Shown: in pieces, positions 21,811 through 47,890 of the stretch
Position numbering within the stretch: position 1 is the first letter of the stretch
How the letters are laid out: every line of letters begins with the position of its first letter
Translations under genes and position numbers: made by a program
Assembly (NCBI GenBank): GCA_963662285.2
Contig: CAXXMV010000002.1
Location: forward strand, 1,216,001-1,280,000
Direction: 5' to 3'
From: a bacterium
GTDB taxonomy: Bacteria > Hinthialibacterota > Hinthialibacteria > Hinthialibacterales > Hinthialibacteraceae
Length of the DNA stretch: 64,000 bases
The notes under the pieces: generated by a model
Seen by the model: only the letters and a program-made list of their open reading frames with translations
Databases searched by the model: none
What the model was told of the DNA's origin: nothing

Positions 21811-23103
21811 TTGAAAAAACGGATTCTGACTATCTATTTTATCGTCGTAATGTCTGCATTGATTAGCTGGAGTGATTGGCCGCAATTCCGTGGACCCAAC
21901 AATGATGGGCATGCCGTCCTGCAGGCTGGAGAACAGGCCAAACCGCTGCCCGTTGAGTTTAATGAGTCTACCAATGTCAAGTGGAAAATTCCCATACATG
22001 ATCTGGGGTGGTGCACTCCGGTTATTATGGGTAAGCAGGTCTGGTTGACAACGGCGTCGCTTGATGGACGCAAAATGTATGTTCTTTGCATTGACAGGGA
22101 ATCTGGCGAAATTCTATTGGATCGTCAACAATTTAATATTGAATCACCCCGGCCATTAGGCAATGATGTCAATACCTACGCTTCGCCTTCCTGCGTCATT
22201 GAAGAGGGAAGAGTTTATGTTCATTTTGGCAGTTACGGCACTGCGTGTATTGATACGAAGACCTTCAAGACGCTGTGGCAACGGCAGGACCTTCCCTGCA
22301 ACCATTTCCGGGGCCCGGCCTCATCGCCCATTCTGTTTGAAGACAAATTAATCTTGACCTTTGATGGCTCCGATTACCAATATCAGGCGGCGTTAAATAA
22401 AATCACTGGCGAAACAATCTGGAAAACCGACCGCGATTCAAATTTCAAAGATTTGGATAATGAGGGAAAGCCCAAGCGTGATGGTGATTTACGCAAAGCT
22501 TATTGCACTCCCTATATCGCCATGATTGATAATCAACCGCAAATGTTGGTTGCGGCTTCACATACCTCATTCTGCTATGATCCACGATCCGGCGAAGAAA
22601 TATGGCGCATTGACCACGAGGGTTACTCCATCGCTTCAATGTCGTTATATGGTCATGGTTTGATTTATATCTTTACCGGACGCAGCCGCCCTGATTTACT
22701 AGCGGTGCAACCGGGCGGTAAGGGAGATATTACCAAGACGCACATCAAGTGGAAATACAACAAAGGAGTTCCATCCATGTGCTCGCCCATTATGGTTGGT
22801 GATCTTATTTACTTTGTGAATAACGGCGGCGTTATTACCTGTCTGGATGCAAAAACGGGAGAAGAGGTTTGGAAGGATCGCTTGAAAGGTCAATACTATG
22901 CATCTCCCATCTTTGCGGATAATAAACTCTATTTTTGTAATGTTACTGGAGATGTGACTATTATTAAACCAGGAAGAAAAATGAATATTTTAAAGATCAA
23001 TACTTTATCTGATGGTTTCATGTCTTCACCGGCAGCCATCAATGGTGAATTATACTTGAGGACCAAATCTCATCTGTATCGCATCGAACAAATTGGTTCG
23101 TAA
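21811..23103 (+). CDS. PQQ-like (BamB-like) beta-propeller protein 1, secreted
   Basis: Signal peptide, DWPQFRGP, repeated DxxTGxxxW blades, SSPA. Confidence 0.9.
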   Translation: MKKRILTIYFIVVMSALISWSDWPQFRGPNNDGHAVLQAGEQAKPLPVEFNESTNVKWKIPIHDLGWCTPVIMGKQVWLTTASLDGRKMYVLCIDRESGEILLDRQQFNIESPRPLGNDVNTYASPSCVIEEGRVYVHFGSYGTACIDTKTFKTLWQRQDLPCNHFRGPASSPILFEDKLILTFDGSDYQYQAALNKITGETIWKTDRDSNFKDLDNEGKPKRDGDLRKAYCTPYIAMIDNQPQMLVAASHTSFCYDPRSGEEIWRIDHEGYSIASMSLYGHGLIYIFTGRSRPDLLAVQPGGKGDITKTHIKWKYNKGVPSMCSPIMVGDLIYFVNNGGVITCLDAKTGEEVWKDRLKGQYYASPIFADNKLYFCNVTGDVTIIKPGRKMNILKINTLSDGFMSSPAAINGELYLRTKSHLYRIEQIGS

Positions 23104-23151
23104 TTAGTGGAGCCCTTGATGATTCAAGGGTAAAAAAAGGAGATTGTTAAT

Positions 23152-24372
23152 ATGTATTCTGGTTATAACAAAAAAATTATATATGTTTTTTCGGCAGTTC
23201 TAATGGTTGCTTTAATGGCGCCATGTGGAGTGATTGCGGATGATTGGCATCAATTTCATGGACCCAATCGTGACCGGATTTCCAACGAAACAGGTTGGCG
23301 CACCAATTGGAGCGATGACGATCCCAAGGTTCTCTGGAAAAAGTCAATCGGCATAGGTTTTTCGTCAATGTCCATTGTCGGAGACCGTGTGTTTACTATG
23401 GGTAACACAAACAATCAGGAGACGGTCTGGTGTTTTGATGTGAAAACCGGGGAAAAAGTGTGGTCTCATACCTACGACTGCGAACTATTTCCAAAGAATC
23501 ACGAAGGTGGTCCTGGTGGAACGCCGACTATCGATAACGAGTCTGTCTACACCGTGAGCAAAGAAGGATATATGTATTGCCTGGATGTTAAGACAGGCAA
23601 AGTTAAATGGGAAAAAGACCTGAAAAAAGAATTTGACGCCAAGATGCCAACCTGGCGTTTCGCCCTCTCTCCATTGCTTGAAGGTGATCGTCTTGTTCTT
23701 GATGTGGGCCTGGCAGTCGTCTTGAATAAAAAGACCGGCGATCTTATTTGGAAATCAGCCAACTACGGTTCCGCCTATTCATCGCCCATCGCTTTTGATT
23801 TTAATGGAAAACGTTGCTTTGCGATTGTACCCGCTTTCGGTCTGGTTGTGCTTGATGCATCTAGTGGTAAAGAAATCGGAAAATTTAAATGGGAAACTCG
23901 TTACGATGTTAATGCAGCTACTCCATTAGTTATGGGGAACAAATTCTTCCTCTCCTCGGGTTACAAAAAGGGTGGGTCAATGGTCGAAATGAGCGCTGAT
24001 GGTGAAATTAAAGAACTATGGCATAACCCCCTGATGCGTAACCACATGAATGCCACGATATTCTGGAAAGACTATTTGTATGGATTTGATGAAGGCAAAC
24101 TTAAATGCATCAATGCCAAAACAGGTGCTGATGTCTGGGAGCAACGTGGTCTTGGAAAAGGATCACTTATGCTGGCTGATGGAAAATTGATCATCCTTAG
24201 TGAAAAAGGTGAACTCGTGGTTGCAGAAGCCAATGGAGCAGCATTTAAACCTCTGTGTCGTAAGCAGGTTCTCTCAGGCCGATGCTGGACCGTTCCCGTT
24301 CTGGCGAATGGTAATATCTATTGCCGCAATGCCGCCGGAGATTTCATATGCCTGGATGTCAGTAAAAAATAG
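23152..24372 (+). CDS. PQQ-like beta-propeller protein 2, secreted
   Basis: Signal peptide, DWHQFHGP, repeated DxKTGxxxW, CWTVPVLANG. Confidence 0.9.
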   Translation: MYSGYNKKIIYVFSAVLMVALMAPCGVIADDWHQFHGPNRDRISNETGWRTNWSDDDPKVLWKKSIGIGFSSMSIVGDRVFTMGNTNNQETVWCFDVKTGEKVWSHTYDCELFPKNHEGGPGGTPTIDNESVYTVSKEGYMYCLDVKTGKVKWEKDLKKEFDAKMPTWRFALSPLLEGDRLVLDVGLAVVLNKKTGDLIWKSANYGSAYSSPIAFDFNGKRCFAIVPAFGLVVLDASSGKEIGKFKWETRYDVNAATPLVMGNKFFLSSGYKKGGSMVEMSADGEIKELWHNPLMRNHMNATIFWKDYLYGFDEGKLKCINAKTGADVWEQRGLGKGSLMLADGKLIILSEKGELVVAEANGAAFKPLCRKQVLSGRCWTVPVLANGNIYCRNAAGDFICLDVSKK

Positions 24373-24408
24373 ATGGGAAATCGGTTATCAAATAACCTGA
24401 TAGTATAA

Positions 24409-24452
24409 AAAATCCCTTTCAATAGATGCATCTGTTAATTGAAAGGGATTTT
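24409..24452. terminator. Hairpin or terminator between propellers 2 and 3
   Basis: aaaatccctttcaat ... attgaaagggatttt inverted repeat. Confidence 0.7.
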
Positions 24453-24569
24453 ACTTTAGACAAAAACCACTCTACTTCTGATCCACGATTCGACTCCCGT
24501 TATTACATGCAATCGGCTAAGCTGTTGCGATAACGACAACTTGTTGGAAAAGTGAGGCAAGCATTAACC

Positions 24570-26090
24570 ATGAGATGCAACAACATCAAACTTCTATTAT
24601 TGATATCAATTACATTATCAGGATTAACCGTTCAGGGAGATGATTGGCCTCAGTGGGGGCGTGATGCTACTCGAAATATGATCTCTTCAGAAAAAGCAAT
24701 CTCCCATGATTTCAATGTGGGGAAGTTCAAAGATCAATCCAATGATGTAGATTTATCAACGACGAAAAATGTCAAATGGGTCGCCCCCCTTGGTTCTGAG
24801 GCTTATGGCAACGTAACCGTAGCCCAGGGCAAAGTCTTTGTCGGTACGAATAATGATACGCCTCGCGATCCAAAACATGTTGGAGATCGTGGTGTGCTGC
24901 TTTGTCTTGATGAAAAGACGGGTGAACTGCTCTGGCAATTGGTGGTTCCCAAACTCAAGTCTGATGATGATCTCGATATGGATTATCTTGGTATATGCTC
25001 ATCGCCGACGGTTGATGGCGACAAGGTATATGTTGTGACCAATCGCTGTGAAGTTGTTTGCCTGGATATTAATGGACAAAAGAACGGTAACGATGGACCC
25101 TTCAAAGATGAAGGCGTTTATATGGCAGACCAAGGACAGCCTCCATTAACAATAGGTCAAACAGACGCTGACATTCTTTGGCGTTATGATATGCGCGCTG
25201 AACTGCAAGTTTATCCACATAATATCACCAGTAGTGCTGTCCTGGTTTTTGATGACCGGATTTATGCAACCACATCGAATGGCAAGGATGGAATGCATAA
25301 AACAATTCCTTCTCCTCATGCTCCATGCTTGATTGTATTGGATAAAAATACCGGGAAGTTGCTTGGCGTCGAGTCATCAGGAATCAGCCAACGGATGATG
25401 CACTGTAATTGGTCGTCACCCGCTTTCGCTGTGATTGATGTGACGCCGATGATTGTCTTTGGCGCCGGTGATGGCTTTTGTTATGGTTTTGATCCCATAC
25501 CTGTGAAGAGCGCGAACAACCATTATGTTCTTAAGGAACGTTGGCGCTTCGATTGCGTCCCCGAAGAGTACAAAGCCAAAGATTATAATTCTCCTGATGG
25601 TCCTAGCGAAATAATTTCAACGCCGGTAGTAGCCAACAATTATGTTTACGCAGCCATCGGGCAAGACCCGGAAAAAGGTGATGGAGTTGGCCGGTTGTCA
25701 TGTATTGACCTGTCCAAGACCGGGGATATTTCCAAAACAGGCGTGGTTTGGTCGTATAAAGAAATCACGCGCTCGCTTTCAACTCCCTCGATTACTGATG
25801 GATTGTTATTCATGGCCGATTATGCAGGCTTTGTTCATTGCCTTAATGCAAAAACAGGTGATGTGCATTGGGTGCATGATACGGCAAGTCATATCTGGGG
25901 ATCAACCATTGTAGTGGATGGTAAAGTATATGTCGGCAATGAAGATGGATACCTGACGGTGCTTAAAGCGGATAAAGAGAAATCCGTGATTAATGAAATC
26001 GATATGGGCGCGCCGGTTTATTCGTCTCCAGTAGTAGCGAATGGTGTGTTGTACATATCAACCCAGACGCATCTATACGCTATCCAGTAG
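24570..26090 (+). CDS. PQQ-like beta-propeller protein 3, secreted
   Basis: DWPQWGR, DEKTGELLW, SSPVVANG. ATG at 24570 (the ORF track starts at GTG 24552). Confidence 0.9.
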   Translation: MRCNNIKLLLLISITLSGLTVQGDDWPQWGRDATRNMISSEKAISHDFNVGKFKDQSNDVDLSTTKNVKWVAPLGSEAYGNVTVAQGKVFVGTNNDTPRDPKHVGDRGVLLCLDEKTGELLWQLVVPKLKSDDDLDMDYLGICSSPTVDGDKVYVVTNRCEVVCLDINGQKNGNDGPFKDEGVYMADQGQPPLTIGQTDADILWRYDMRAELQVYPHNITSSAVLVFDDRIYATTSNGKDGMHKTIPSPHAPCLIVLDKNTGKLLGVESSGISQRMMHCNWSSPAFAVIDVTPMIVFGAGDGFCYGFDPIPVKSANNHYVLKERWRFDCVPEEYKAKDYNSPDGPSEIISTPVVANNYVYAAIGQDPEKGDGVGRLSCIDLSKTGDISKTGVVWSYKEITRSLSTPSITDGLLFMADYAGFVHCLNAKTGDVHWVHDTASHIWGSTIVVDGKVYVGNEDGYLTVLKADKEKSVINEIDMGAPVYSSPVVANGVLYISTQTHLYAIQ

Positions 26091-26283: not shown

Positions 26284-27636
26284 ATGAAACGATTGCATTT
26301 TTTCGTCATCGCTTTTTTTATGACCTTGCCTTTATGTTCGAGCGAATTTGATGACCAGAAAGATTTAAATTGGCATCAATGGCGTGGACCGAATGCTACT
26401 GGCGTGGCGCCGCATGGAGATCCTCCTATCGAATGGAGTGATTCAAAAAATATAAAATGGAAAGCGCCCATTCCAGGTGATGGAGATTCCACCCCTATCA
26501 TTTGGGGTGATCAGGTTTTTTTATTGACGGCCATCAAGACGGATAAAACTGATCCCCAAGCGAAAGCGGCGGAACCAGCGGCCAGTGATGCGCCGCCTCC
26601 CCGTCGTCGCGGAGGTATGGGCGCTTCAAAGCCAACTAATATATATCAGTTTGTCGTACTCTGTTATGAACGCAATACTGGAAAAATCCAATGGCAAAAA
26701 ACTGCGGTTGAGTGCGTCCCCCATGAAGGACATCATGGTACTGGTACCTTTGCATCAGCCTCTCCAAGCACCGATGGTAAATACCTCTATGCCTTCTTCG
26801 GTTCGCGCGGGATTTATTGTTATGATCTGGCTGGTGAACTGCAATGGTCGCGGGATTTAGGTGATATGCAGATTACCAACAGTTTCGGAGAAGGGGCGTC
26901 TCCAGCCTTGTATAAGGATTCGTTGATCGTCAATTGGGATCACGAGGGACAATCGTTTATCACCAATCTCGACGCCAAGACAGGTGAACCGAAATGGACC
27001 ATGGATCGGGATGAACCGACTTCCTGGTCGACTCCATTGATCGTGGAATATAATGGCAACCCCCAAATCATTATCAATGCCACTAATAAAAGCCGGGGTT
27101 ACGATCTGAATACTGGAAAAGTGCTCTGGGAATCAGGTGGACAGACCAGAAATGTAATTCCCGCATCGCTTGCTTTGGATAAATCAGTTATTTGTATGAG
27201 CGGTTTTCGCGGCAGCGCAATGCAATCCATTTCATTGGATTCCACAGGTGATGTCACCGGTACAGACAAAGTTCTCTGGTCATACAACAAAGATACACCC
27301 TACACGCCTTCAGCGCTGCTCTATGGAACCTCTTTGTATTTTACCAAGACGAATGGTACTACATTAACATGCTTGAACGCGGAAACTGGCCAACCGATTA
27401 TTGAAGGCGTCCGCTTACCTGATATGATGGGAACCATTTACTCTTCACCAGTCGGCGCGGCGAATCGCATATATCTCATGACCCGTGACGGTAAATTTCT
27501 CGTAATCAAACATGGACCTCAACTTGAAATTCTGGCCAACAACAAACTGAACGATGAATTCAGCGCTTCTCCTGCGGTTGCCGGTAAGCAGCTGTTTTTG
27601 CGAGGCAGGGAATTTCTGTATTGTATTGAGGAATAG
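26284..27636 (+). CDS. PQQ-like beta-propeller protein 4, secreted
   Basis: NWHQWRGP, STPIIWG, SWSTP, SASPA, plus an Arg/Pro-rich insertion. Confidence 0.9.
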   Translation: MKRLHFFVIAFFMTLPLCSSEFDDQKDLNWHQWRGPNATGVAPHGDPPIEWSDSKNIKWKAPIPGDGDSTPIIWGDQVFLLTAIKTDKTDPQAKAAEPAASDAPPPRRRGGMGASKPTNIYQFVVLCYERNTGKIQWQKTAVECVPHEGHHGTGTFASASPSTDGKYLYAFFGSRGIYCYDLAGELQWSRDLGDMQITNSFGEGASPALYKDSLIVNWDHEGQSFITNLDAKTGEPKWTMDRDEPTSWSTPLIVEYNGNPQIIINATNKSRGYDLNTGKVLWESGGQTRNVIPASLALDKSVICMSGFRGSAMQSISLDSTGDVTGTDKVLWSYNKDTPYTPSALLYGTSLYFTKTNGTTLTCLNAETGQPIIEGVRLPDMMGTIYSSPVGAANRIYLMTRDGKFLVIKHGPQLEILANNKLNDEFSASPAVAGKQLFLRGREFLYCIEE

Positions 27637-27939: not shown

Positions 27940-29082
27940 ATGAATTACACGCGACAAATGATTCCACTAGGTCTTTTTCTACTTGCATTCTTTCCCTTAA
28001 TCGGTGTTCACGCGGATGCCAACCCGGACGAGTGGCGTATGTTTCGCGGGGGGCAGGGACAGATGGGCGTCTACCAGGGCGCCTTGCCAGAAGAACTTGA
28101 TCTTCTTTGGACATACAAAACCGATGGCCCGATCATTTCATCCGCCGTCATCAGCGACGGAACAGTGTATATCGGTTCAGGCGACGGATCGTTATACGCG
28201 ATATCACTCATGTCGGGCGAAAAAATCTGGGCGTATCCAACTGGGTCTCCTATCGAAGCTCCTCCTATGGTTTTGGATGATTCGATTTATATCGGTTCAT
28301 CGGATGGTTTTCTCTATTCAGTCGATATTGAAGATGGAACATTAAACTGGAAATTCGAGACTTATGATAAAATTATCGGCTCAGCCAACTGGAGTTATGA
28401 AGCAGGAGCGCCGAACAAGACCATTATTCTAGGAAGCTATGATGGCTTTCTATACGCTCTGGATGCTAAAACCGGGCAAGAACGATGGCGCTATGAATCG
28501 GAAAGTTACATTAACGGCTCACCAGCGGTGTATGATGGTATGGCGATTTTCGGTGGCTGTGATGCAATGATCCATTGCGTTTCACTAAAAGATGGCGCCG
28601 CAAAATCTGTGTTTGAGGTCGATGCCTATATCGCGGCGTCTATCGCCTTTGATGGAACAATGGCTTATGTGGGACATTATTCAAATAAGTTTATTTGTGT
28701 TGATATAGAAAAACAGGAATTAGTATGGGAATACGAGGATCGTGAGTTCCCGTTTTTTTCCTCGGCAGCCATAGCGGAAGACCGCATCGTTTTCGGTTCA
28801 CGGGATCGCCGGGTGCATTGCGTCAATCGTACGACGGGAAAGCCGGTTTGGACCTTTCTTACAAAAGGTGAAGTTGATTCTTCTCCGGTGGTTTGTGGGA
28901 ATGATATCGTCATCGGTTCAGAGGATGGACGTTTGTACCGCCTGCGACTTTTGGATGGAACTGTTGTCTGGTCCTATGAAATCGGCGCCTCAATTCTGGC
29001 TTCGCCCGCCCTCTCTCGCGGGATCGTTGTTATCGGAGCGGATGATGGGGTATTATATGCTTTTGGCAAAAAAAATAGTTAA
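27940..29082 (+). CDS. PQQ-like beta-propeller protein 5 (regular BamB-type repeats), secreted
   Basis: WRMFRG and regular SSP-x-V-x-x-G-S-x-DG-x-LYA blades. Confidence 0.9.
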   Translation: MNYTRQMIPLGLFLLAFFPLIGVHADANPDEWRMFRGGQGQMGVYQGALPEELDLLWTYKTDGPIISSAVISDGTVYIGSGDGSLYAISLMSGEKIWAYPTGSPIEAPPMVLDDSIYIGSSDGFLYSVDIEDGTLNWKFETYDKIIGSANWSYEAGAPNKTIILGSYDGFLYALDAKTGQERWRYESESYINGSPAVYDGMAIFGGCDAMIHCVSLKDGAAKSVFEVDAYIAASIAFDGTMAYVGHYSNKFICVDIEKQELVWEYEDREFPFFSSAAIAEDRIVFGSRDRRVHCVNRTTGKPVWTFLTKGEVDSSPVVCGNDIVIGSEDGRLYRLRLLDGTVVWSYEIGASILASPALSRGIVVIGADDGVLYAFGKKNS

Positions 29083-42097: not shown

Positions 42098-43857
42098 ATC
42101 AGACAATGAATGACAATAATAAACATGACATGCGTTGGTATTCCACTGTCAGGGGAATCGCCGTTGTTTCAGGCGTCTTCTCTCTGATTGTAGCTGGTTT
42201 GCTTATGCAAAACTACATAGCCGATCAGCGGGGGCTTCCAGAGAAAGAAGCCCTCTATTCAGCAAAACTGGTGCAGCAGAAAGAACTGCTCAGCCAAAAT
42301 CCGCGTAGTGAAGAGATAAAAAATGAGCTGCGGGGCCTGGACCTTGAACTAAGACAGGGATATTTCCAGCGCAAGGCTTTCGCCCGGCGGGGAAAGTATC
42401 TTCTTCTGGTAAGCATCGCGGTTTTCTTGCTGGCCATGAAAAAAGCAATATCCCTGAAGCAGGCGCTGGCGATGCTCGAACCTGAATTCCGGGATCAGGA
42501 TATCGAAGCGAAAAGCAGGATGCAGGCGCGATGGGCGGTGGGTATGCTTGGAATTATCATAGTCGGCGGCATCCTGGCTTTGGCTTTCACGCCCGGAATT
42601 GAACTGGTCTCTACTCCTATAGATTCAGGTGAAGATTCTACTCCTCCTCAACCGGAATATCCCACTGATGAAGAGTATCAAAATAACTGGCCTATATTCC
42701 GTGGTCATGGTGGGATGGGGATTTCCACTCATAGCGATGCGCCTACATCCTGGAATGGAGAGAACGGTGAAGGCATCCTGTGGAAAACCAAGACGCTGCT
42801 GCCGGGTAACAACTCTCCCATCGTCTGGGGTGACCGGATATTCATTTCTGGAGCCAATGAGACGGAAAAAGTGGTTTATTGCTATTCAACCGATTCCGGC
42901 GAACTGCTGTGGCAAGAACGGGTTGAAACGCCCCAAAGCACTGCTGCCAAAGATGATCTACAGATTTTTGAAGATACTGGTTATGCGGCTTCCACCATGG
43001 CTTGTGATGGCTCGCGGGTCTATGCGGTGTTCATTGATGGCGATATCGCCTGTTTCGATTTAGAAGGGCGTAGAGTCTGGGTAAAAAACCTGGGAATACC
43101 GGATAGTATTTACGGGTATGCAACCTCTCTTGTGGTGTATAATACTCTTGTGTTGGTGCAATACGACCAGGGCGAAGCCGATGACGACAAATCGGCGCTC
43201 TTTGCCCTGGAAGGAAAAACCGGGCAGATCGTATGGCGCAAGCAACGGCCTGTCGCCAATACATGGACCTCTCCGATTCTTATCGATACCGGCGCAGGAA
43301 AGCAATTTGTTACATGCTCAGAACCGTGGGTGATCGCCTATGATCCCGACACGGGAGATGAACTCTGGAAAGCCCAGCTGATGGGCGTGGATCTCGCCCC
43401 TTCTCCTATCTATGCCAATGGTTTGGTCTTCGTGATTCAGCCCAACGAAACATTGTTCGCAATCCGCCCTGATGGCCGGGGGGATGTGACGGAAACTCAT
43501 GTGGCTTGGACCGTCGATTGCATTGCGCCTGACATTTGCAGCCCGGTAAGCAACGGGAAACTGATCTTCCTGCTTACCACGCCAGGCGTTCTCACATGCT
43601 ACGACGCGACCAGCGGCGATATGATCTGGGAGCATGAAATGGATGACGCATTTCAGTCGTCTCCCAGTATTGCGGGGGAGTGGATTTATCTGTTAAGCGA
43701 AGAAGGCGTGACATACCGGATCAAAGCCTCTGACAAGTACGAGGAAGCCGAAAGCAAATCCTATTTGGACGAATGGCTGAAAGCCTCACCCGCCTTCATG
43801 GATGGCCGGATATTTATTCGAGGCGATATGCATTTGTACGGCATCGGGGAAAAATGA
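42094..43857 (+). CDS. PQQ-like beta-propeller protein 9 with three N-terminal TM helices
   Basis: ATGA coupling at 42094, three hydrophobic helices, then NWPIFRG, NSPIVWGD, ASPAF. Confidence 0.9.
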   Translation: MNQTMNDNNKHDMRWYSTVRGIAVVSGVFSLIVAGLLMQNYIADQRGLPEKEALYSAKLVQQKELLSQNPRSEEIKNELRGLDLELRQGYFQRKAFARRGKYLLLVSIAVFLLAMKKAISLKQALAMLEPEFRDQDIEAKSRMQARWAVGMLGIIIVGGILALAFTPGIELVSTPIDSGEDSTPPQPEYPTDEEYQNNWPIFRGHGGMGISTHSDAPTSWNGENGEGILWKTKTLLPGNNSPIVWGDRIFISGANETEKVVYCYSTDSGELLWQERVETPQSTAAKDDLQIFEDTGYAASTMACDGSRVYAVFIDGDIACFDLEGRRVWVKNLGIPDSIYGYATSLVVYNTLVLVQYDQGEADDDKSALFALEGKTGQIVWRKQRPVANTWTSPILIDTGAGKQFVTCSEPWVIAYDPDTGDELWKAQLMGVDLAPSPIYANGLVFVIQPNETLFAIRPDGRGDVTETHVAWTVDCIAPDICSPVSNGKLIFLLTTPGVLTCYDATSGDMIWEHEMDDAFQSSPSIAGEWIYLLSEEGVTYRIKASDKYEEAESKSYLDEWLKASPAFMDGRIFIRGDMHLYGIGEK

Positions 43858-43895
43858 TTTCCGGTTAAGCGCGATTCTATAAATAAGCGAACTTA

Positions 43896-46307
43896 ATGAC
43901 TCAACAATCCTCTATTAGGAACACGTTATTGCCAATGGATAGTATGATAGATCAAAATACCATAAATCTGAATCAGGCGGTTGATCAAGCAGTCGCGCAT
44001 CATGGCCGCGATTCGGAAGCGGTTATACCGATTCTGCAAGAGTTGCAGAAGCAATTCCGCTATCTGCCTGAAGACGCCTTGCGCAGAGTGTGCGAGATTA
44101 CAGATATCACCCCTGCTGACTTGACCGGAGTGTCTACGTTTTTTGATCAGTTTCGCCATCGTCCGGTAGGGCGTCATATGATTAGCGTCTGTCATGGAAC
44201 CGCGTGTCACGTAAAAGGCGCAGACCGGATCACCGAAGCGATACAACGCCATTTGGGGCTTGATGACGATAATGACACTGACGTCGATGCATGTTTCACC
44301 CTTCAAAAAGTGGCTTGCCTGGGATGCTGCACGCTGGCGCCAGCCGTTCAGATTGATGATGTGACCTATGGGCACATGCTCCCTGAGCGGACGCCCCGTA
44401 TGCTGATGGATTTTCTCGAACTCAAAAAACAAAATCCATCAACGCCAGTCAATAAATCTTCGCTCCATAATGGCGGTAGCGCCGGTGAACTCAGGATCAG
44501 CCTGGGGTCTTGCTGCGTCGCCAGAGGCAGCGGCAAGATACTTGAGGCGCTTGAGGAAGTCATGCTGCGATACGGCATTCAAGCCAACGTCAAACCGGTC
44601 GGGTGCGTCGGTATGTGTCATCAGACGCCGCTTCTGGAAGTGATCCCCCCGGAAGGCGACGCCCACTTTTACGCCCGTGTTCTTCCCGAAGACGCGGAAG
44701 CCATTCTGCTAAACCATTTCAAGCCGCAGAGTTATTTCAAAAAACTACAGGGATCGATTTCAAGAACCTTGAACTTTCTTTTGACTGGAGAATCACAACA
44801 TCCTATTAGTCAGCGAATGATTCATCTTCAGGATGAGCCGGTCGCTGCTTTTCTTCATAAACAACAACATATTGCCACGGCCTACAGTGGACAACTCGAT
44901 CCCACCGATCTTGATGAATACAGAAGCCATGACGGCTTCACCGCTCTCGAACAGGCCATACAAAGTTCTACGCCGGAAGAGATAATCGCCCGTATCACGG
45001 CCAGTGGTCTGAGAGGCCGGGGCGGCGCCGGTTATCTGACCGGCCTTAAATGGTCCAAAGTTCAACAGACCGCTGAGCAAACACGGTATGTGATATGCAA
45101 TGGCGATGAAGGCGACCCTGGAGCATTTATGGATCGCATGCTGATGGAGTCATACCCTTATCGCGTTATTGAGGGGATGATCATCGCCGCTTATGCAGTT
45201 GGCGCTCAACAAGGCTATTTCTATATACGTGCCGAGTATCCCCTGGCGGTGAGCAGAATCAAGCAAGCCTTGAAGCAATGTCGGGAGCATGGACTGCTGG
45301 GTGAGCGGATATTGGGCAGCGCGTTTAACTTTGATCTAGAGATCAAGGAGGGGGCGGGCGCTTTTGTCTGTGGAGAAGAATCTGCATTGATTGCTTCAAT
45401 CGAAGGTCAGCGGGGAATGCCCCGGCTTCGACCCCCATATCCTGCTGAATGTGGTCTTCGGGAAAAACCGACTTTAGTGAATAACGTTGAAACCTGCACG
45501 CTTATCCCGGCTATCTTGCGTGACGGCCAGGAGACATTTCTCTCGCTGGGCACAAAATCGAGCGCGGGAACCAAAGTCTTTTCATTAGCAGGAAAAGTGG
45601 TTCGGGGTGGATTGATTGAAGTGCCGATGGGCATCAGTTTAAGAGAATTAGTGGAAGAGATCGGCGGGGGAGTGCGGGAAGGAAGGCGTTTCAAAGCTAT
45701 CCAGGTGGGCGGCCCTTCAGGCGGCTGCATCCCGGCGGAACAGACCGATGTCCCCATTGATTACGAATCGCTCTCCAGTCATGGAGCGATCATGGGATCA
45801 GGCGGTCTGGTCGTACTCGACGATGAAGATTGCATGGTGGATATGGCGCGGTATTTTCTGGAATTCACCCGGGAACAGTCATGCGGCAAATGCACATTCT
45901 GCCGGGTCGGTTCATTGCGGATGTTGGACATTCTCGAAAAACTTTGTGAGGGAAAAGCATCCCGTGGCGATTTGGAAAAACTGGAATCCTTGGCTGGTTT
46001 GGTTCAGCAGGGCAGCCTCTGCGGGCTGGGCAAGACGGCGCCTAATCCAGTGTTAACTACTCTCAGGCATTTTCGCAGTGAATACGAAGCTCATCTTGAG
46101 GGACGGTGTCCGGCTGGCAGGTGCCGTTCCTTGATTACATATTCCATAACCAGTGAATGCGTGGGCTGTACGCTTTGCGCTCAGAATTGTCCGACGCAGG
46201 CCATTGCCGTGAAGCCTTATGAACGGCAGGTGATTGATGTAGACCGTTGCGTCCGGTGCGGCGCGTGTCTCAATGTGTGCCCGGTTCAGGCAGTCAGGAA
46301 GGAATAG
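43896..46307 (+). CDS. Fused NuoE/NuoF-like (HydC-HydB/BfuC-BfuB) NADH-binding flavo-Fe-S protein
   Basis: CHGTAC...CLGCC (2Fe-2S), second thioredoxin-like Fe-S domain (GCVGMC), GLRGRGGAG, EGDPGAFMDR, GAFVCGEE, GGPSGG, SCGKCTFCR...LCGLG, CPAGRC, C-terminal 2x[4Fe-4S]. Confidence 0.93.
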   Translation: MTQQSSIRNTLLPMDSMIDQNTINLNQAVDQAVAHHGRDSEAVIPILQELQKQFRYLPEDALRRVCEITDITPADLTGVSTFFDQFRHRPVGRHMISVCHGTACHVKGADRITEAIQRHLGLDDDNDTDVDACFTLQKVACLGCCTLAPAVQIDDVTYGHMLPERTPRMLMDFLELKKQNPSTPVNKSSLHNGGSAGELRISLGSCCVARGSGKILEALEEVMLRYGIQANVKPVGCVGMCHQTPLLEVIPPEGDAHFYARVLPEDAEAILLNHFKPQSYFKKLQGSISRTLNFLLTGESQHPISQRMIHLQDEPVAAFLHKQQHIATAYSGQLDPTDLDEYRSHDGFTALEQAIQSSTPEEIIARITASGLRGRGGAGYLTGLKWSKVQQTAEQTRYVICNGDEGDPGAFMDRMLMESYPYRVIEGMIIAAYAVGAQQGYFYIRAEYPLAVSRIKQALKQCREHGLLGERILGSAFNFDLEIKEGAGAFVCGEESALIASIEGQRGMPRLRPPYPAECGLREKPTLVNNVETCTLIPAILRDGQETFLSLGTKSSAGTKVFSLAGKVVRGGLIEVPMGISLRELVEEIGGGVREGRRFKAIQVGGPSGGCIPAEQTDVPIDYESLSSHGAIMGSGGLVVLDDEDCMVDMARYFLEFTREQSCGKCTFCRVGSLRMLDILEKLCEGKASRGDLEKLESLAGLVQQGSLCGLGKTAPNPVLTTLRHFRSEYEAHLEGRCPAGRCRSLITYSITSECVGCTLCAQNCPTQAIAVKPYERQVIDVDRCVRCGACLNVCPVQAVRKE

Positions 46308-46309
46308 GG

Positions 46310-47890
46310 ATGGTTCGAGTAATCATAGATAGACAGGAAATCGATATGCCGGATGGCGCCACGATTCTCGATGCGGCATGCAAATTGGGAATTTCCATCC
46401 CCACCATGTGCTTTCTCGAAGGGAGGAAGCCACAGACGTCCTGTATGGTTTGCCTGGTGAAGACCCGGAATCCAGACCGGCTGGTTCCCGCCTGCGGCAC
46501 TCCGGTGCATGATGGTTTGGAAGTAGAAAGCGAAACGGAAGAAGTCCATCAAGCCAGAAAGGCCGCGCTGGAACTCTTGTTGAGCGAACACGTCGGAGAA
46601 TGTCTGGCGCCTTGTCATACCATCTGTCCTGCCGGGATGAATGTCCCCCGTATGATTCGACAGATAGAAGCAGGAGAAATGGCGCAAGCCATCTGTACGG
46701 TCAAAGCGGATCTGGCGCTGCCTGCCGTGTTAGGCCGGATTTGCGAGGCGCCGTGTGAGAACGGTTGTCGTCGAAAGGCTCATGATGACGCCGTGTCGAT
46801 CTGTTTGCTTGAACGTCATGTCGCAGACTGGGACCTGGCGCAAGATGAATCCTACTTGCCCCCATGCAAGCCGGATCAGAACAAGCGGGTAGCCATAGTG
46901 GGCGCCGGTCCAGCCGGATTGGCGGCGGCGTATCAGCTCCAGCAGGAAGGCTATGGATGCACGGTATTCGATGATCATGACCAGCCGGGAGGCAGCCTGC
47001 GGTATGAGGTTTCAGAGAGTGTTCTTTCCCGTGATGTTCTTCAGGCTGAAATCGGATTGATCGGGAAAATCGGCGTACGGTTTCTTATGGAGACGCGGAT
47101 TGGCGACCAGCTTTCTTTCGAGGATTTGCAGAGAGATTATGATGCCGTGCTTGTAACGGCAGGGGCGGTTCAACCAGATGCTGCTGAGGAATGGACGCGG
47201 ATTTTTGGACCGGGTGGAATCGAAGCGGATAGGAAAACATTCGAAACCCGCTTGCCGGGAGTCTTTGCCGCAGGCAGCGTACTTCGTCCTGAAAAGTATG
47301 CTGTGCGAGCGCTTGCCCAGGGCAAGAAGGCTGCTTTTTCCATAGCGCAGTATCTTAGCGGTGAACCTGTCACTGGTTATGCCAAAGAATTCACCACCAG
47401 CATCGGTAAGTTGACTGAAAGAGAGATGGATTGCTTCCTCTCGCTTGCCAGCCCGGTCGGACAGGTTGTTCCTGCCAATGGAATCGAAGAGGGCTTGCAA
47501 GAAAACGAGGCCCGCGAGGAAGCCATGCGCTGCTGCAAGTGCGGTTGCGACAGTCCATCTGACTGTAAATTAAGACTATACTCCGCCGCTTATGATGCGC
47601 GGCCGGGTCGGTTCAAAGGAGAGCGTAAGGAATTCTTGACGCTGCTTCAGCACCCAAACGTAATACACAACCCGGGTAAATGCATCCTATGCGGATTATG
47701 CATACAAATCACGAAGGATGCTGCTGAAGAACTTGGTCTGGCTTTCGCGGGTCGTGGATTTGAGGTAAAGGTTGTCGTGCCGTTTGGCGGTTCGATGAAA
47801 GACGGGTTAGCCCGTGTTGCATCGGAATGCGTCGAGGCATGTCCAACTGGAGCATTAGTTTTCAAAGAAGAAGATGATTGCCGCGAATAG
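46310..47890 (+). CDS. NuoG/HydA-head plus GltD-like FAD/Fe-S subunit (BfuA/NfnA-like), no catalytic H-cluster or Mo domain
   Basis: IPTMC...SCMVC...PAC, APCHTICP, GRICEAPCENGC, IVGAGPAG, EAMRCCKCGC, KCILCGLC, CVEACPTGAL. ATG at 46310. Confidence 0.88.
   Translation: MVRVIIDRQEIDMPDGATILDAACKLGISIPTMCFLEGRKPQTSCMVCLVKTRNPDRLVPACGTPVHDGLEVESETEEVHQARKAALELLLSEHVGECLAPCHTICPAGMNVPRMIRQIEAGEMAQAICTVKADLALPAVLGRICEAPCENGCRRKAHDDAVSICLLERHVADWDLAQDESYLPPCKPDQNKRVAIVGAGPAGLAAAYQLQQEGYGCTVFDDHDQPGGSLRYEVSESVLSRDVLQAEIGLIGKIGVRFLMETRIGDQLSFEDLQRDYDAVLVTAGAVQPDAAEEWTRIFGPGGIEADRKTFETRLPGVFAAGSVLRPEKYAVRALAQGKKAAFSIAQYLSGEPVTGYAKEFTTSIGKLTEREMDCFLSLASPVGQVVPANGIEEGLQENEAREEAMRCCKCGCDSPSDCKLRLYSAAYDARPGRFKGERKEFLTLLQHPNVIHNPGKCILCGLCIQITKDAAEELGLAFAGRGFEVKVVVPFGGSMKDGLARVASECVEACPTGALVFKEEDDCRE

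What the first reader, a model, noticed from the sequence alone, without database searches (positions are those of the whole stretch)
21811..47890. Candidate undescribed trans-envelope redox system: nine PQQ-like propellers, GT4, ABC exporter, NapGH-like module and bifurcating-type NADH module
Seen: 18 co-oriented genes over 26 kb, with the 37.5-47.9 kb part tightly packed (TGATG/ATGA overlaps at 40787 and 42094). The components could form a continuous wire: a cytoplasmic NADH/ferredoxin flavo-Fe-S complex, a NapH-like membrane Fe-S protein, Tat-type Fe-S proteins, and ten extracytoplasmic beta-propellers. I saw no molybdopterin subunit, H-cluster, NiFe subunit or CxxCH heme motif. Established: NapGH/MauMN/NosGH modules normally serve a defined periplasmic enzyme, and two of those (methylamine dehydrogenase, N2O reductase) are propeller-based. 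Inference: the propellers form the missing catalytic or scaffold partner, possibly binding a small cofactor modified by the GT4 and exported by the ABC system.
Basis: partly seen in the sequence, partly recalled or inferred. Interest (0 to 1): 0.9.

Follow-up and report, generated by a model that had tools for sequence, protein, structure and literature searches.

The report
Conserved propeller and iron-sulfur electron-wire operon
This is a real, widely conserved but undescribed gene cluster that seems to link the cell's NADH and ferredoxin pools, through iron-sulfur proteins that cross the membrane, to a set of propeller-shaped proteins outside it; what it acts on is unknown.

Summary
There are 18 co-oriented genes at 21811-47890: nine BamB/PQQ_2-type propellers, an NHL propeller, GT4, a MacB-type ABC pair, a 76-aa four-Cys protein, a Tat polyferredoxin, a NapH-type membrane Fe-S protein and a Bfu-type NADH/ferredoxin flavoprotein pair. 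None has a CxxCH motif.

The cluster is not a chance neighbourhood. In the 80 metagenome loci kept, the order is p5/p10-type propeller, GT4, ABC, FtsX, p11, NHL, (small Cys protein), NapG-like, NapH-like, p15, NuoEF, GltD-like, p2. For example, p15 is followed by NuoEF in 26 of 26 loci and FtsX by p11 in 41 of 41. The core recurs in three phyla: the NHL marker was found in 21 of 35, 11 of 75 and 65 of 121 genomes searched.

The BfuA-like subunit has no catalytic domain, and in most lineages no NADPH-binding subdomain, so it has no recognisable third-substrate site of its own. My best reading (about 0.5) is a heme- and pterin-free Fe-S route joining a Bfu core to membrane-anchored periplasmic propellers. 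The flow is probably outward, as an electron sink. The NHL protein's invariant vicinal Cys-Cys is a candidate end point.

The propellers are not PQQ enzymes. Five relatives keep the core without the Bfu pair. The substrate and the roles of GT4 and ABC remain untested. Ten literature searches found no description of the operon.

The parts
21811..23103 (+). p1: secreted BamB/PQQ_2-type 8-bladed propeller (paralogue group of p4 and p15)
   Evidence: Pfam PQQ_2 6e-19. N-terminal hydrophobic signal. Paralogue grouping.
23152..24372 (+). p2: secreted propeller (group of p9 and p11). In the metagenome consensus this type sits after the GltD-like gene.
   Evidence: PQQ_2 1.3e-28. GltD followed by p2 in 15 of 17 metagenome loci.
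24552..26090 (+). p3: secreted propeller, an extra paralogue
   Evidence: PQQ_2 2e-21. An orthologue was seen only in G013.
26284..27636 (+). p4: secreted propeller, an extra paralogue
   Evidence: PQQ_2 2.3e-20. 29% identical to p1.
27940..29082 (+). p5: propeller of the p5/p10 type (strong Beta-prop_ACSF4 match). This type precedes GT4 in the consensus operon.
   Evidence: PF13570 205 bits and PQQ_2 4.6e-38. p5/10 followed by GT4 in 16 of 21 loci.
29113..30399 (+). GT4 glycosyltransferase with a conserved N-terminal Y-C-x-x-C motif
   Evidence: Glycos_transf_1 2.5e-30. All NCBIfam hits are below cut-off. C15 and C18 kept in at least 90% of 27 sequences. Linked to the core in all three phyla.
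30471..31178 (+). ABC ATPase of a MacB-type (FtsX) exporter
   Evidence: ABC_tran 4.7e-36. 4-nt overlap with the permease gene.
31175..34516 (+). Duplicated FtsX permease, 1113 aa, with nine hydrophobic segments and large extracytoplasmic inserts
   Evidence: FtsX in two stretches and MacB_PCD. Hydropathy. FtsX followed by p11 in 41 of 41 loci.
34682..36007 (+). p9: secreted propeller (group of p2 and p11). It precedes p11 in many genomes of another phylum.
   Evidence: PQQ_2 1.6e-17. Synteny.
36204..37427 (+). p10: membrane-anchored propeller, 50% identical to p5
   Evidence: PF13570 238 bits. TM-like segment at residues 7-25. Identity.
37472..38893 (+). p11: core propeller with one N-terminal TM anchor. 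It has many invariant polar residues (K167, H170, R174, H192, Q224, H267, R460, D461).
   Evidence: PQQ_2 3e-25. AF2 pLDDT 85.8. BamB-like fold, TM 0.77. Invariant columns. p11 followed by NHL in 64 of 64 loci.
38922..39932 (+). NHL six-bladed propeller with an N-terminal TM anchor. Invariant W..GCCNP..T.EKG, a vicinal Cys-Cys. The ORF opens at 38883; the likely start is the ATG at 38922.
   Evidence: No Pfam hit. AF2 pLDDT 92. NHL fold. Invariant columns (43 sequences; 100 sequences). Family size: 4081 cluster representatives at E<=1e-3.
39956..40186 (+). Small 76-aa protein: S-R-R-x-L (Tat-like) motif, one hydrophobic helix, then C-x5-C-x2-C-x5-C-x-LP
   Evidence: ORF. Conserved between NHL and NapG-like in 59 of 72 metagenome loci and in all 11 relatives of families f1/f3 for which loci L003-L013 were held. 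No Pfam or NCBIfam family.
40173..40787 (+). Tat-exported polyferredoxin (NapG-like by role) with 17 invariant Cys, enough for four [4Fe-4S] clusters
   Evidence: Fer4 domains. RR and Cys invariant. Closest solved relative is WorS, 9mqx_E, 1.2e-7. NapG model scores only 17 bits against a cut-off of 269.
40787..42097 (+). NapH-type polytopic Fe-S membrane protein: six hydrophobic segments, a GCxC motif, two CX3CP motifs, a lone conserved Cys, and two CxxCxxCxxxCP motifs separated by about 140 residues that hold two extra helices
   Evidence: Fer4_5 1.7e-12. TIGR02163 43.9 bits against cut-off 213. Conserved Cys. Hydropathy.
42094..43857 (+). p15: core propeller behind a three-helix membrane domain with invariant R93, D96 and R100 (numbering from the GTG at 42055). 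The ATG at 42094 overlaps the NapH-like stop codon.
   Evidence: PQQ_2 1.4e-25. Alignment A4. NapH followed by p15 in 30 of 31 loci. Overlap read.
43896..46307 (+). Fused BfuC-BfuB (NuoE-like 2Fe-2S, second thioredoxin-like 2Fe-2S, NuoF FMN/NADH domain, N3-type 4Fe-4S, C-terminal 2x[4Fe-4S])
   Evidence: Pfam. Best PDB chains 9bov_B 4.3e-210, 8oh5_B, 9n5u_B and HydB chains. p15 followed by NuoEF in 26 of 26 loci.
46310..47890 (+). BfuA/StnC-like subunit: 2Fe-2S, the two 4Fe-4S clusters and FAD domain of GltD, and NuoG-like clusters. It lacks the NADPH-binding subdomain and has no C-terminal catalytic domain.
   Evidence: Pfam. Alignment to 9bov_A and 8oh5_C skips reference residues about 290-444 and ends at about 675 of 1178. 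Cluster ligands and GxGxxG kept in 23-34 orthologues. NuoEF followed by GltD in 19 of 19 loci.

Best explanation
The cluster encodes one multi-subunit envelope system.

Cytoplasmic module. It is a Bfu-type flavoprotein pair. One subunit is a fused NuoE/NuoF-like protein with the FMN/NADH site and the C-terminal ferredoxin-type clusters typical of bifurcating HydB/StnB. The other is a BfuA/StnC-like Fe-S/FAD subunit. That second subunit has lost every known third-substrate site, so its cluster chain ends at a free surface.

Proposed route. I propose that this surface docks on the cytoplasmic [4Fe-4S] domain of the NapH-type membrane protein. Electrons would then pass through that protein's conserved Cys motifs to the Tat-exported four-cluster polyferredoxin, with or without the small four-Cys protein. 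They would end at a membrane-anchored periplasmic assembly of cofactor-less propellers (p11, p15, NHL).

Direction and end point. The most likely direction is outward. NADH and reduced ferredoxin would be confurcated, as in a confurcating hydrogenase, and the electrons disposed of on a periplasmic acceptor. The invariant vicinal Cys-Cys of the NHL propeller is the best candidate for the terminal redox-active or substrate-binding site, for example for a disulfide, sulfane sulfur or a soft metal.

Accessory genes. GT4, the p5/p10-type propeller and, in many lineages, a MacB-type ABC exporter belong to the same system. Their role is unknown.

Shown:
- gene content, domain losses and conserved ligands;
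- operon conservation;
- signals or membrane anchors on all propellers.

Inferred:
- every protein contact;
- the trans-membrane electron path;
- the direction of flow and the acceptor.
For: 1. One unit. Adjacency counts in the 80 metagenome loci kept:
- FtsX followed by p11: 41 of 41
- p11 followed by NHL: 64 of 64
- NHL followed by NapG-like: 66 of 71
- NapG-like followed by NapH-like: 42 of 42
- NapH-like followed by p15: 30 of 31
- p15 followed by NuoEF: 26 of 26
- NuoEF followed by GltD-like: 19 of 19
These loci are diverse. Their 79 NHL proteins fall into 73 clusters at 90% identity and 24 at 70%, and locus GC runs from 0.44 to 0.64. The genes overlap or abut in the window.

2. Same core in other phyla.
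- G389 and G232 carry p11, NHL, NapG-like, NapH-like, p15, NuoEF and GltD-like in that order.
- Of 18 further loci from those two phyla, NHL, NapG-like and NapH-like are together in 18 of 18, p15 is present in 16 of 18 and NuoEF sits next to p15 in 13 of 18. The others mostly end at a contig or locus edge.

3. Co-occurrence. NHL and NapH-like are found in the same genomes of the window's phylum: 13 of 19 in f1, 1 of 2 in f3, 0 of 4 in f2 and 6 of 7 in f5. G026 is the one exception, with NapH-like only.

4. Bfu identity. The best solved relatives of both cytoplasmic subunits are Stn, Nfn-Bfu and HydABC chains.

5. No third-substrate site of its own. Against 9bov_A and 8oh5_C the A-like subunit lacks about residues 290-444, the NADPH-binding subdomain, and everything after about residue 675. 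The Fe-S ligands and the FAD GxGxxG motif are kept in 23-34 orthologues.

6. Precedent. In WorABCSL a 247-aa domain-less BfuA acts as a 'plug' for the polyferredoxin WorS (PMC12318220: abstract and passages read). WorS (9mqx_E) is the closest solved relative of the Tat polyferredoxin here, at 1.2e-7.

7. Membrane protein. The NapH-type protein keeps two CX3CP motifs, two CxxCxxCxxxCP motifs and three further Cys in 63 orthologues.

8. Context in the window's genome (92.5% complete).
- PFOR is present.
- No Fe_hyd_lg_C domain, no RnfD/NqrB and no COX1 were found.
Ferredoxin is therefore made, while two common ferredoxin sinks were not found.
Against: - Five relatives of the same family (G007, G013, G016, G002, G009) keep NapG-like, NapH-like, p15, p11 and NHL. 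None has an orthologue of the GltD-like subunit anywhere in its genome, and p9 follows p15 instead. The periplasmic part can therefore work without the Bfu pair.
- The window's genome has MqnA-family genes. Quinol, the donor of canonical NapH, is probably available.
- No cofactor that could carry electrons through the bilayer is demonstrated for any NapH-family protein (recalled, not tested).
- No redox cofactor is recognisable in any propeller.
- In family f5 the GltD-like subunit is 662 aa with a complete Pyr_redox_2 domain. There the pair could be a self-sufficient Nfn-type transhydrogenase.
- The window's genome also has a Hox-like NiFe hydrogenase beside a second NuoF-like gene, so another electron sink exists.
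- No expression data are available.
Confidence: 0.5

Rival explanations
1. Quinol-linked periplasmic module plus an independent soluble enzyme. The NapH-type and NapG-like proteins work as in Nap, Nos and Mau systems: a quinol dehydrogenase that feeds, or is fed by, the periplasmic propeller assembly. The Bfu pair is a separate cytoplasmic Nfn/Stn-like enzyme that is only co-transcribed.
For: - Five relatives have the core without the GltD-like subunit.
- MqnA-family genes are present in the window's genome.
- The f5 form of the subunit keeps a full NAD(P)H domain.
- Quinol oxidation is the accepted role of NapH (recalled; also stated in PMC8238504, passages read).
Against: - In most lineages the A-like subunit has neither an NADPH site nor a catalytic domain. 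A free-standing enzyme would have NADH and ferredoxin but no third partner.
- Adjacency of p15 to NuoEF is 26 of 26 in metagenome loci, and the order is kept across phyla.
- The gaps are 38 nt and 2 nt.
Confidence: 0.2
2. Inward flow. One or more propellers, or the NHL protein, oxidise a low-potential periplasmic donor. The electrons travel inward through the NapG-like and NapH-like proteins to the Bfu core, which bifurcates them to NAD+ and ferredoxin, as WorABCSL and HydABC do.
For: - Bfu enzymes are reversible, and WorABCSL runs in this direction (PMC12318220).
- The PQQ_2 superfamily includes a cofactor-free enzyme, tetrathionate hydrolase. It ranks 8th among fold matches of p11 and scores 2e-10 against the p15 profile.
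- NapH-like proteins were found next to extracytosolic oxidases (ExaA) in 172 genomes (PMC8238504).
- p11 has many invariant polar residues.
Against: - Bifurcation to ferredoxin needs a donor near -400 mV. No metal or organic redox cofactor site is recognisable in the propellers.
- BamB outranks tetrathionate hydrolase by fold and by sequence.
- No PqqC was found, but that search is inconclusive because the control rang nowhere.
Confidence: 0.12
3. Envelope building or repair system. GT4, the MacB-type exporter and the BamB-like propellers make, export or assemble an envelope glycoconjugate or lipoprotein. The Fe-S chain only supplies reducing power for periplasmic thiol chemistry, through the NHL Cys-Cys and the GT4 CxxC. 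This would be analogous to DsbD/CcdA or to thiol export by CydDC (both recalled).
For: - GT4 and a p5/p10-type propeller travel with the core in all three phyla.
- BamB is the best fold match of p11.
- The vicinal Cys-Cys is invariant.
- GT4 keeps a CxxC motif.
- The weak GT4 matches include the thiol-biosynthesis enzymes MshA and BshA, all below cut-off.
Against: - The ABC/FtsX pair is absent next to the core in G389 and G232 and in many loci of those phyla.
- A ferredoxin-level Bfu module is far more reducing than disulfide exchange needs.
- No thioredoxin-fold or DsbD-like protein is in the cluster.
Confidence: 0.15

Closest known systems
WorABCSL (Bfu 'plug' with a polyferredoxin nanowire; PDB 9mqx; PMC12318220)
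   Same: Both have a BfuBC core with a BfuA subunit that lacks a catalytic domain and hands electrons to or from a separate four-cluster polyferredoxin. 9mqx_B, 9mqx_A and 9mqx_E match the NuoEF, GltD-like and Tat Fe-S proteins at 6e-174, 1e-13 and 1e-7.
   Different: - Here the polyferredoxin carries a Tat signal and must lie across the membrane from the Bfu core, with a NapH-type protein between them.
- There is no tungstopterin subunit.
- The BfuA-like subunit carries a GltD-type FAD insert.
StnABC / Nfn-Bfu transhydrogenases (PDB 8oh5, 9n5u, 9bov; PMC10482914)
   Same: These are the best sequence relatives of both cytoplasmic subunits. They share the domain order 2Fe-2S, GltD insert, NuoG-like clusters. 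StnC is described as GltD (residues 102-565) plus NuoG.
   Different: - The NADPH-binding subdomain and the C-terminal half, about 500 aa, are missing.
- NuoE and NuoF are fused.
- The genes are embedded in a membrane/periplasmic operon.
NapGH / NosGH / MauMN modules
   Same: Both pair a polytopic protein carrying two CX3CP motifs and two ferredoxin-type motifs with a Tat-exported four-cluster ferredoxin. Both sit next to periplasmic propeller proteins; that NosZ and the methylamine dehydrogenase heavy subunit are propellers is recalled.
   Different: - Scores are far below the curated NapH and NapG cut-offs (43.9 against 213; 17 against 269).
- Two extra helices are inserted between the ferredoxin motifs.
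- There is no Mo, Cu or heme enzyme.
- A cytoplasmic Bfu pair is attached.
NapH-like flavinylated extracytosolic electron-transfer systems (PMC8238504)
   Same: A NapH-like protein is used as a modular trans-membrane electron route for varied periplasmic partners, including PQQ propeller oxidases (ExaA, 172 genomes).
   Different: - No FMN-binding domain or ApbE is in the cluster.
- The propellers are not ExaA-type.
- A Tat polyferredoxin takes the place of the flavin domain.
Predicted membrane-bound Bfu enzymes (Mbh-Bfu, Nuo-Bfu; PMC9304861)
   Same: A Bfu core is proposed to be coupled to a membrane complex. That paper also leaves 17 BfuB clades without a function.
   Different: Those use Mrp/complex-I-type membrane arms and act on H+ or quinone. 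Here the arm is NapH-type and leads to the periplasm. The word 'periplasm' does not occur in that paper's main text. Its supplements could not be read.
BamB and tetrathionate hydrolase (BamB/PQQ_2 propeller superfamily)
   Same: Eight-bladed fold. BamB gives TM 0.77 and tetrathionate hydrolase ranks 8th and 24th. Both are free of cofactors.
   Different: - All BamB model scores are below cut-off (at most 154 against 285).
- p11 and p15 are anchored by helices, not lipid.
- Whether the catalytic residues of the hydrolase are present was not examined.

Membership tests
NapH/MauN/NosH (TIGR02163, PF12801) | Polytopic membrane protein with at least 4 TM helices | tested here: met
   Six hydrophobic segments by hydropathy.
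NapH/MauN/NosH (TIGR02163, PF12801) | Two CX3CP motifs | tested here: met
   C139-x3-C143-P144 and C227-x3-C231-P232 are kept in at least 90% of 63 orthologues.
NapH/MauN/NosH (TIGR02163, PF12801) | Two C-terminal CxxCxxCxxxCP [4Fe-4S] motifs | tested here: met
   C255/258/261/265-P and C404/407/410/414-P are conserved. They are separated by about 140 residues that hold two extra helices, unlike canonical NapH.
NapH/MauN/NosH (TIGR02163, PF12801) | Score above the curated family cut-off | tested here: not met
   TIGR02163 gives 43.9 bits against 213, and NF007013 gives 37 against 234. Only the Pfam domain Fer4_5 passes, at 47.5 bits against 22.
NapH/MauN/NosH (TIGR02163, PF12801) | Quinol dehydrogenase activity | not testable with these tools
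   This needs biochemistry.
NapG/MauM (NF007012) | Tat signal plus four [4Fe-4S] motifs | tested here: met
   R26, R27 and 17 Cys are invariant in 26 sequences.
NapG/MauM (NF007012) | Score above the curated family cut-off | tested here: not met
   17 bits against 269. The closest solved relative is instead WorS, 9mqx_E.
BfuBC core (HydBC/StnAB-like) | NuoE-like 2Fe-2S domain, NuoF FMN/NADH domain and N3 cluster | tested here: met
   PF01257, PF01512 and PF10589. Best PDB chains are Bfu B subunits, at 1e-174 to 4e-210.
BfuBC core (HydBC/StnAB-like) | Extra clusters typical of bifurcating B subunits (N-terminal thioredoxin-like 2Fe-2S, C-terminal 2x[4Fe-4S]) | tested here: met
   Two stretches of PF01257, and Fer4 twice at residues 752-801. 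Alignments to HydB/StnB cover residues 199-802.
BfuBC core (HydBC/StnAB-like) | Electron bifurcation or confurcation with NAD(H) and ferredoxin | not testable with these tools
   This needs an enzyme assay.
StnC / NfnA (GltD-NuoG fusion) | GltD-type FAD site with its two [4Fe-4S] clusters | tested here: met
   PF14691 and the GxGxxG motif are kept. The usual GD motif reads GS in the window protein.
StnC / NfnA (GltD-NuoG fusion) | NADPH-binding subdomain | tested here: not met
   Reference residues about 290-444 have no counterpart. The f5 homologues do have it.
StnC / NfnA (GltD-NuoG fusion) | C-terminal molybdopterin-like domain | tested here: not met
   The alignment ends at about residue 675 of 1178. 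The protein is 526 aa.
PQQ-dependent dehydrogenases (TIGR03075) | Score above cut-off and a full-length catalytic propeller of about 600 aa | tested here: not met
   The best score is 100.9 bits against 480. The proteins are 380-512 aa, and 587 aa for p15 including its membrane domain.
PQQ-dependent dehydrogenases (TIGR03075) | PQQ supply (pqqC) | tested here: inconclusive
   Not found in the window's genome, but the control rang in none of the 14 control genomes.
BamB (TIGR03300) | Eight-bladed propeller fold | tested here: met
   Foldseek best match is BamB 3q54, E 5e-17, TM 0.77.
BamB (TIGR03300) | Score above cut-off | tested here: not met
   49.9-154 bits against 285.
NHL repeat propellers (PF01436) | Six-bladed NHL fold | tested here: met
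   AF2 pLDDT 92. TRIM2/3, Thin and Brat NHL domains fill the top ranks. Pfam itself gives no hit at E<=0.01. Look-alike Atlas clusters carry NHL in 74-92% of members.
MacB-type ABC exporter | FtsX permease domains with a MacB-like periplasmic domain and a cognate ATPase | tested here: met
   PF02687 in two stretches, PF12704 and PF00005. No adaptor or outer-membrane partner is in the cluster.

The most novel reading that the evidence does not exclude
This would be the first flavin-based electron-confurcating (Bfu) complex whose third redox partner lies on the other side of the membrane. The route would be free of heme, quinone and pterin and built only from Fe-S clusters: BfuA-like plug, NapH-type protein, Tat polyferredoxin, with or without a mini four-Cys protein. 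It would let fermentative bacteria of at least three phyla discharge NADH and reduced ferredoxin onto a periplasmic acceptor. That acceptor would be handled by cofactor-less propellers, with the vicinal Cys-Cys of a new NHL family as the catalytic end, for example reducing sulfane sulfur or disulfides.
Probability: 0.3. Interest if true: 0.9.

Novelty: new variant of a known kind. Interest (0 to 1): 0.72.

Why it matters
- Bfu enzymes are known only with soluble third substrates or, by prediction, with complex-I-like arms. A Bfu core wired through a NapH-type protein to the periplasm would be a new way for anaerobes to balance NADH and ferredoxin. It would also be a new kind of heme-free trans-membrane electron path.
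- It would give a testable function to three large groups of 'hypothetical' proteins: a GCCNP NHL family with thousands of cluster representatives, the small four-Cys protein, and the abundant BamB-like 'PQQ-binding-like' propellers.
- It bears on an open question: what the cytoplasmic clusters of NapH-family proteins are for.
- The operon is common. The NHL marker was found in 65 of 121 genomes sampled in one phylum, so the process could matter for the electron budgets of the communities that carry it.

Tried and rejected
- Complex prediction with the p15 propeller, the NHL domain and the mature NapG-like protein (partner NapG-like): 'no answer', score 0.01 against a mark of 0.32. This is no evidence either way.
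- The look-up of sequencing runs listed no RNA holder. Read laying was therefore not used, and expression and co-transcription remain untested.
It was repeated with 13 sequences.
- The genome-contig scan with the NapH-like protein returned one locus only.
- Attempts to place the organism:
  - PF07596 rang nowhere, including the controls.
- Quinoprotein reading rejected. Scores are far below cut-off. pqqC was not found, but the control was silent.
- 'CGCC' as a four-residue metal motif rejected. Only the CC pair is invariant.
- The conserved Cys of p11 and p15 (C195, C384, C467; C276, C515) were considered as ligands. I rejected them by eye because they sit at the small-residue position of the blade motif (read). 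This is an inference.
- The tetrathionate-hydrolase lead from Foldseek is kept only as a lead, because BamB scores better by fold and by profile.
- Flanking genes are not part of the conserved unit. FMN_red, ArsR and Sulf_transp lie upstream, and G6PD and lactonase downstream on the other strand. The flanks of metagenome loci vary: radical SAM, TerB, integrase, GH120-like.
- Literature: ten searches found no description of this operon. The supplements of PMC9304861 and PMC8238504, which list gene clusters, could not be read and might include it.

Full report
OBSERVATION. ORF listing and Pfam scans confirm 18 co-oriented genes on the + strand between 21811 and 47890.

Nine proteins match PF13360 (PQQ_2) above the gathering score. 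I call them p1-p5, p9-p11 and p15. A tenth extracytoplasmic propeller (38883/38922-39932) has no Pfam hit. It is modelled with pLDDT 92 as a six-bladed NHL propeller.

The remaining genes are:
- a GT4 glycosyltransferase;
- an ABC ATPase with a 1113-aa duplicated FtsX permease;
- a 76-aa ORF (39956-40186);
- a Tat-signal polyferredoxin (40173-40787);
- a Fer4_5 NapH-type membrane protein (40787-42097);
- a fused NuoE-NuoF protein with extra clusters (43896-46307);
- a 2Fe-2S/GltD-like/NuoG-like protein (46310-47890).

The TGATG and ATGA overlaps are in the sequence. From p11 onward the gaps are 44, 28, 23, -14, -1, -4, 38 and 2 nt. No protein has a CxxCH motif. All propellers start with a signal-like or anchor-like hydrophobic segment; p15 has three.

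The nine PQQ_2-type propellers fall into paralogue groups {p1, p4, p15}, {p2, p9, p11}, {p5, p10} and p3.

IT IS ONE CONSERVED UNIT. The NapH-type protein and the NHL protein occur in the same genomes of the window's phylum. That phylum holds only 35 genomes in the collection. The counts are 13 of 19 in family f1, 1 of 2 in f3, 0 of 4 in f2 and 6 of 7 in f5. G026 has the NapH-type protein only.

I fetched the surrounding DNA from ten of these relatives.
- p11, NapG-like, NapH-like and p15 lie together in 10 of 10.
- NHL lies in the same stretch in 9 of 10.
- NuoEF and GltD-like follow p15 in 4 of 10: G014 and the three f5 genomes.

A metagenome scan anchored on the NHL motif confirmed 588 loci, of which the best 80 were kept. 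In those, the order is p5/p10-type propeller, GT4, ABC, FtsX, p11, NHL, NapG-like, NapH-like, p15, NuoEF, GltD-like, p2-type propeller. Each count below is over the loci that have enough sequence on that side:
- p5/10 followed by GT4: 16 of 21
- GT4 followed by ABC: 18 of 18
- ABC followed by FtsX: 25 of 26
- FtsX followed by p11: 41 of 41
- p11 followed by NHL: 64 of 64
- NHL followed by NapG-like: 66 of 71
- NapG-like followed by NapH-like: 42 of 42
- NapH-like followed by p15: 30 of 31
- p15 followed by NuoEF: 26 of 26
- NuoEF followed by GltD-like: 19 of 19
- GltD-like followed by p2: 15 of 17

The loci are not near-duplicates. Their 79 NHL proteins form 73 clusters at 90% identity and 24 at 70%, and GC runs from 0.44 to 0.64. 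They are, however, the 80 best-scoring relatives of one query and are kin, so the counts overstate independence. Flanking genes vary.

DISTRIBUTION. The NHL family is large: 4081 50%-identity cluster representatives at E<=1e-3, and 677 at E<=1e-30.

One search covered 401 genomes, of which 366 lie outside the window's phylum. Three of those 366 had strong matches: G232, G389 and G238.
- G389 and G232 carry p11, NHL, NapG-like, NapH-like, p15, NuoEF and GltD-like (505-545 aa) in that order. No GT4/ABC/FtsX lies within about 16 kb upstream.
- In G232's phylum the NHL marker was found in 11 of 75 genomes at E<=1e-40.
- In G389's phylum, which also holds G238, it was found in 65 of 121 sampled genomes.

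Eighteen further loci from those two phyla were examined.
- NHL, NapG-like and NapH-like are together in 18 of 18.
- p11 is present in 17 of 18 and p15 in 16 of 18.
- NuoEF sits beside p15 in 13 of 18. Most of the rest stop at a contig or locus end.
- In G389's phylum the usual order is p9, p11, NHL, NapG-like, NapH-like, p15, NuoEF, GltD-like, GT4, p10-type.

So GT4 and a p5/p10-type propeller stay linked, while the ABC pair is often not adjacent. Atlas look-alikes of the NHL and small proteins are commonest in Planctomycetota, Latescibacterota, Verrucomicrobiota and Bacteroidota. These are leads only.

THE SMALL GENE. The 76-aa ORF has an S-R-R-x-L motif, one hydrophobic helix, a basic stretch and C-x5-C-x2-C-x5-C-x-LP.
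- A matching ORF lies between NHL and NapG-like in 59 of 72 metagenome loci that hold both genes.
- It is present in all 11 f1/f3 relatives for which loci L003-L013 were held.
- It is present in G389 and G238, where the RR pair is not kept.
- By the strict motif it is present in 4 of the 18 further loci.
- It was not found in the f5 loci.
- It has no Pfam or NCBIfam family.

Four Cys plus a Tat-like signal suggest a small cofactor-bearing protein on the periplasmic face. This is an inference.

CYTOPLASMIC MODULE. The fused NuoE-NuoF protein is closest to the B subunits of Stn, Nfn-Bfu and bifurcating hydrogenases: 9bov_B 4e-210, 8oh5_B, 9n5u_B, 7t2r_B, 7q4v_B, 8a6t_B and 9mqx_B. It has the extra 2Fe-2S domain and C-terminal 2x[4Fe-4S] domain of that family.

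The second subunit is closest to 9bov_A, StnC (8oh5_C) and NfnA. StnC is described as a GltD-type NADPH/FAD domain (residues 102-565) inserted in a NuoG-like protein (PMC10482914, passages read). Residue-by-residue alignment shows two losses in the window protein. It skips reference residues about 290-444, the NADPH-binding subdomain. It ends at about residue 675 of 1178, so the whole C-terminal domain is absent.

The Fe-S ligands and the FAD GxGxxG motif are kept in 23-34 orthologues of similar length. Only family f5 has a 662-aa form with a complete Pyr_redox_2 domain. In most lineages this is therefore a Bfu core whose A subunit has cluster chains and a flavin but no recognisable third-substrate site.

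MEMBRANE AND PERIPLASMIC Fe-S PROTEINS. The NapH-type protein has six hydrophobic segments. In 63 orthologues it keeps a G-C-x-C motif, two CX3CP motifs, one further Cys and two CxxCxxCxxxCP motifs. The last two are separated by about 140 residues with two extra helices. It scores far below the curated NapH cut-off (43.9 against 213). It is NapH-like in architecture but is not a NapH orthologue.

The Tat protein keeps RR and 17 Cys, enough for four [4Fe-4S] clusters. It scores 17 bits against the NapG model, whose cut-off is 269. Its closest solved relative is WorS (9mqx_E, 1.2e-7). WorS is the polyferredoxin that links a domain-less BfuA 'plug' to the catalytic subunit in WorABCSL (PMC12318220, abstract and passages read).

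PROPELLERS. All NCBIfam matches to BamB and to PQQ dehydrogenases are below cut-off. The p11 model (pLDDT 85.8) matches BamB best, with TM 0.77. Tetrathionate hydrolase, a cofactor-free enzyme of the same superfamily, ranks 8th and 24th. By profile, BamB also outranks it.

p11 keeps an unusual number of polar residues, including three His, among its 75 invariant columns in 29 sequences. This hints at a specific site rather than a plain scaffold, but I could not map the residues in three dimensions.

The NHL protein keeps W245, G258-C259-C260-N261-P262, T276, E278 and G280 in all 43 sequences of A1. The CC pair is kept in at least 90% of 100 sequences. No His is conserved. Vicinal Cys pairs are known as strained redox-active disulfides in PQQ methanol dehydrogenase and as soft-metal ligands in MerA and ArsD. 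Both points are recalled, not tested.

CONTEXT IN THE WINDOW'S GENOME (92.5% complete).
- Found: PFOR, MqnA-family genes, and a NiFe hydrogenase next to a second NuoF-like gene.
- Not found: menA, the [FeFe]-hydrogenase catalytic domain, RnfD/NqrB and COX1.

This fits an anaerobe that makes reduced ferredoxin. Absence in an incomplete genome is not proof.

MECHANISM. The best-supported reading is a single system. In it the Bfu core exchanges electrons with the periplasm through the NapH-type protein and the Tat polyferredoxin, and the end point is the anchored propeller/NHL assembly. I favour outward flow, that is confurcation of NADH and reduced ferredoxin into a sink. The carriers look fermentative, and no low-potential catalytic cofactor is visible outside the membrane.

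The main counter-evidence is that five f1 genomes have the periplasmic and membrane core, with p9 after p15, but no GltD-like orthologue anywhere. Canonical NapH uses quinol. The Bfu link may therefore be optional or indirect.

The rival readings are a quinol-linked module with an independent soluble enzyme, inward flow from a propeller oxidase, and an envelope-building system with a thiol-reducing side chain. They are set out separately. The acceptor, the role of GT4 (which keeps a CxxC) and the role of the ABC exporter are unknown.

NOVELTY. Each part belongs to a known superfamily. The assembly was not found in print in ten searches.
- The Bfu survey (PMC9304861, passages read) predicts only Mbh- and Nuo-type membrane-bound Bfu enzymes. 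It leaves 17 BfuB clades unassigned and never mentions the periplasm in its main text.
- The NapH-like survey (PMC8238504, passages read) covers flavinylated systems only.
- The supplements of both papers were closed and may list such clusters.

LIMITS. There is no expression evidence. The one complex prediction gave no usable answer. Topologies come from hydropathy only. All protein contacts and the electron path are inferred.

Noticed in passing
window 39956-40186 (+): A 76-aa ORF with a Tat-like SRRxL motif, one helix and C-x5-C-x2-C-x5-C-x-LP. It has no family in Pfam or NCBIfam, yet it is conserved between the NHL and NapG-like genes in most related loci. It looks like a new small Cys-rich membrane or periplasmic protein family.
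   Followed up: partly
window 10369-15664 (+): A complete rRNA operon (16S, two tRNAs in the spacer, 23S, 5S) lies about 6 kb upstream of the cluster. This explains the high-GC, ORF-poor stretch.
   Followed up: no
window 19175-21563 (+): An FMN_red flavoprotein, an ArsR-type regulator and a Sulf_transp (YeeE/YedE-like) transporter sit directly upstream of p1. They are not part of the conserved operon elsewhere. They may still hint at sulfur-compound handling in this organism.
   Followed up: no
window 53292-54500 (-) and L113:1192-3036: NosD-like right-handed beta-helix proteins occur near the cluster in the window. In one metagenome locus such a protein, with a GH120 insertion domain, lies between the p5-type propeller and GT4.
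   Followed up: no
L027, L029 and L033 (family f5 genomes G029, G027, G030): In this family the GltD-like subunit is 662-663 aa with a full NAD(P)H-binding Pyr_redox_2 domain. The NapH-type protein is shorter (363-371 aa) and the small Cys protein was not found. This may be the ancestral or an alternative form of the system.
   Followed up: partly
G000:C2:520002-523904: The window's genome has a second NuoF-like gene (56% identical over residues 318-734). It lies next to a HoxU-like 2Fe-2S gene and a NiFe hydrogenase large subunit, which looks like a Hox-type bidirectional hydrogenase.
   Followed up: no
whole genome G000: The PQQ_2 search gave 49 matches spread over several contigs, many in frames of 1000-1400 aa. 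This organism has a large expansion of BamB-like propellers beyond the cluster.
   Followed up: no
window 29113-30399 (GT4): The GT4 of this operon keeps an N-terminal F-Y-C-x-x-C-x-R-D motif (C15, C18) in at least 90% of 27 orthologues. To my recollection this is unusual for GT4 enzymes.
   Followed up: no
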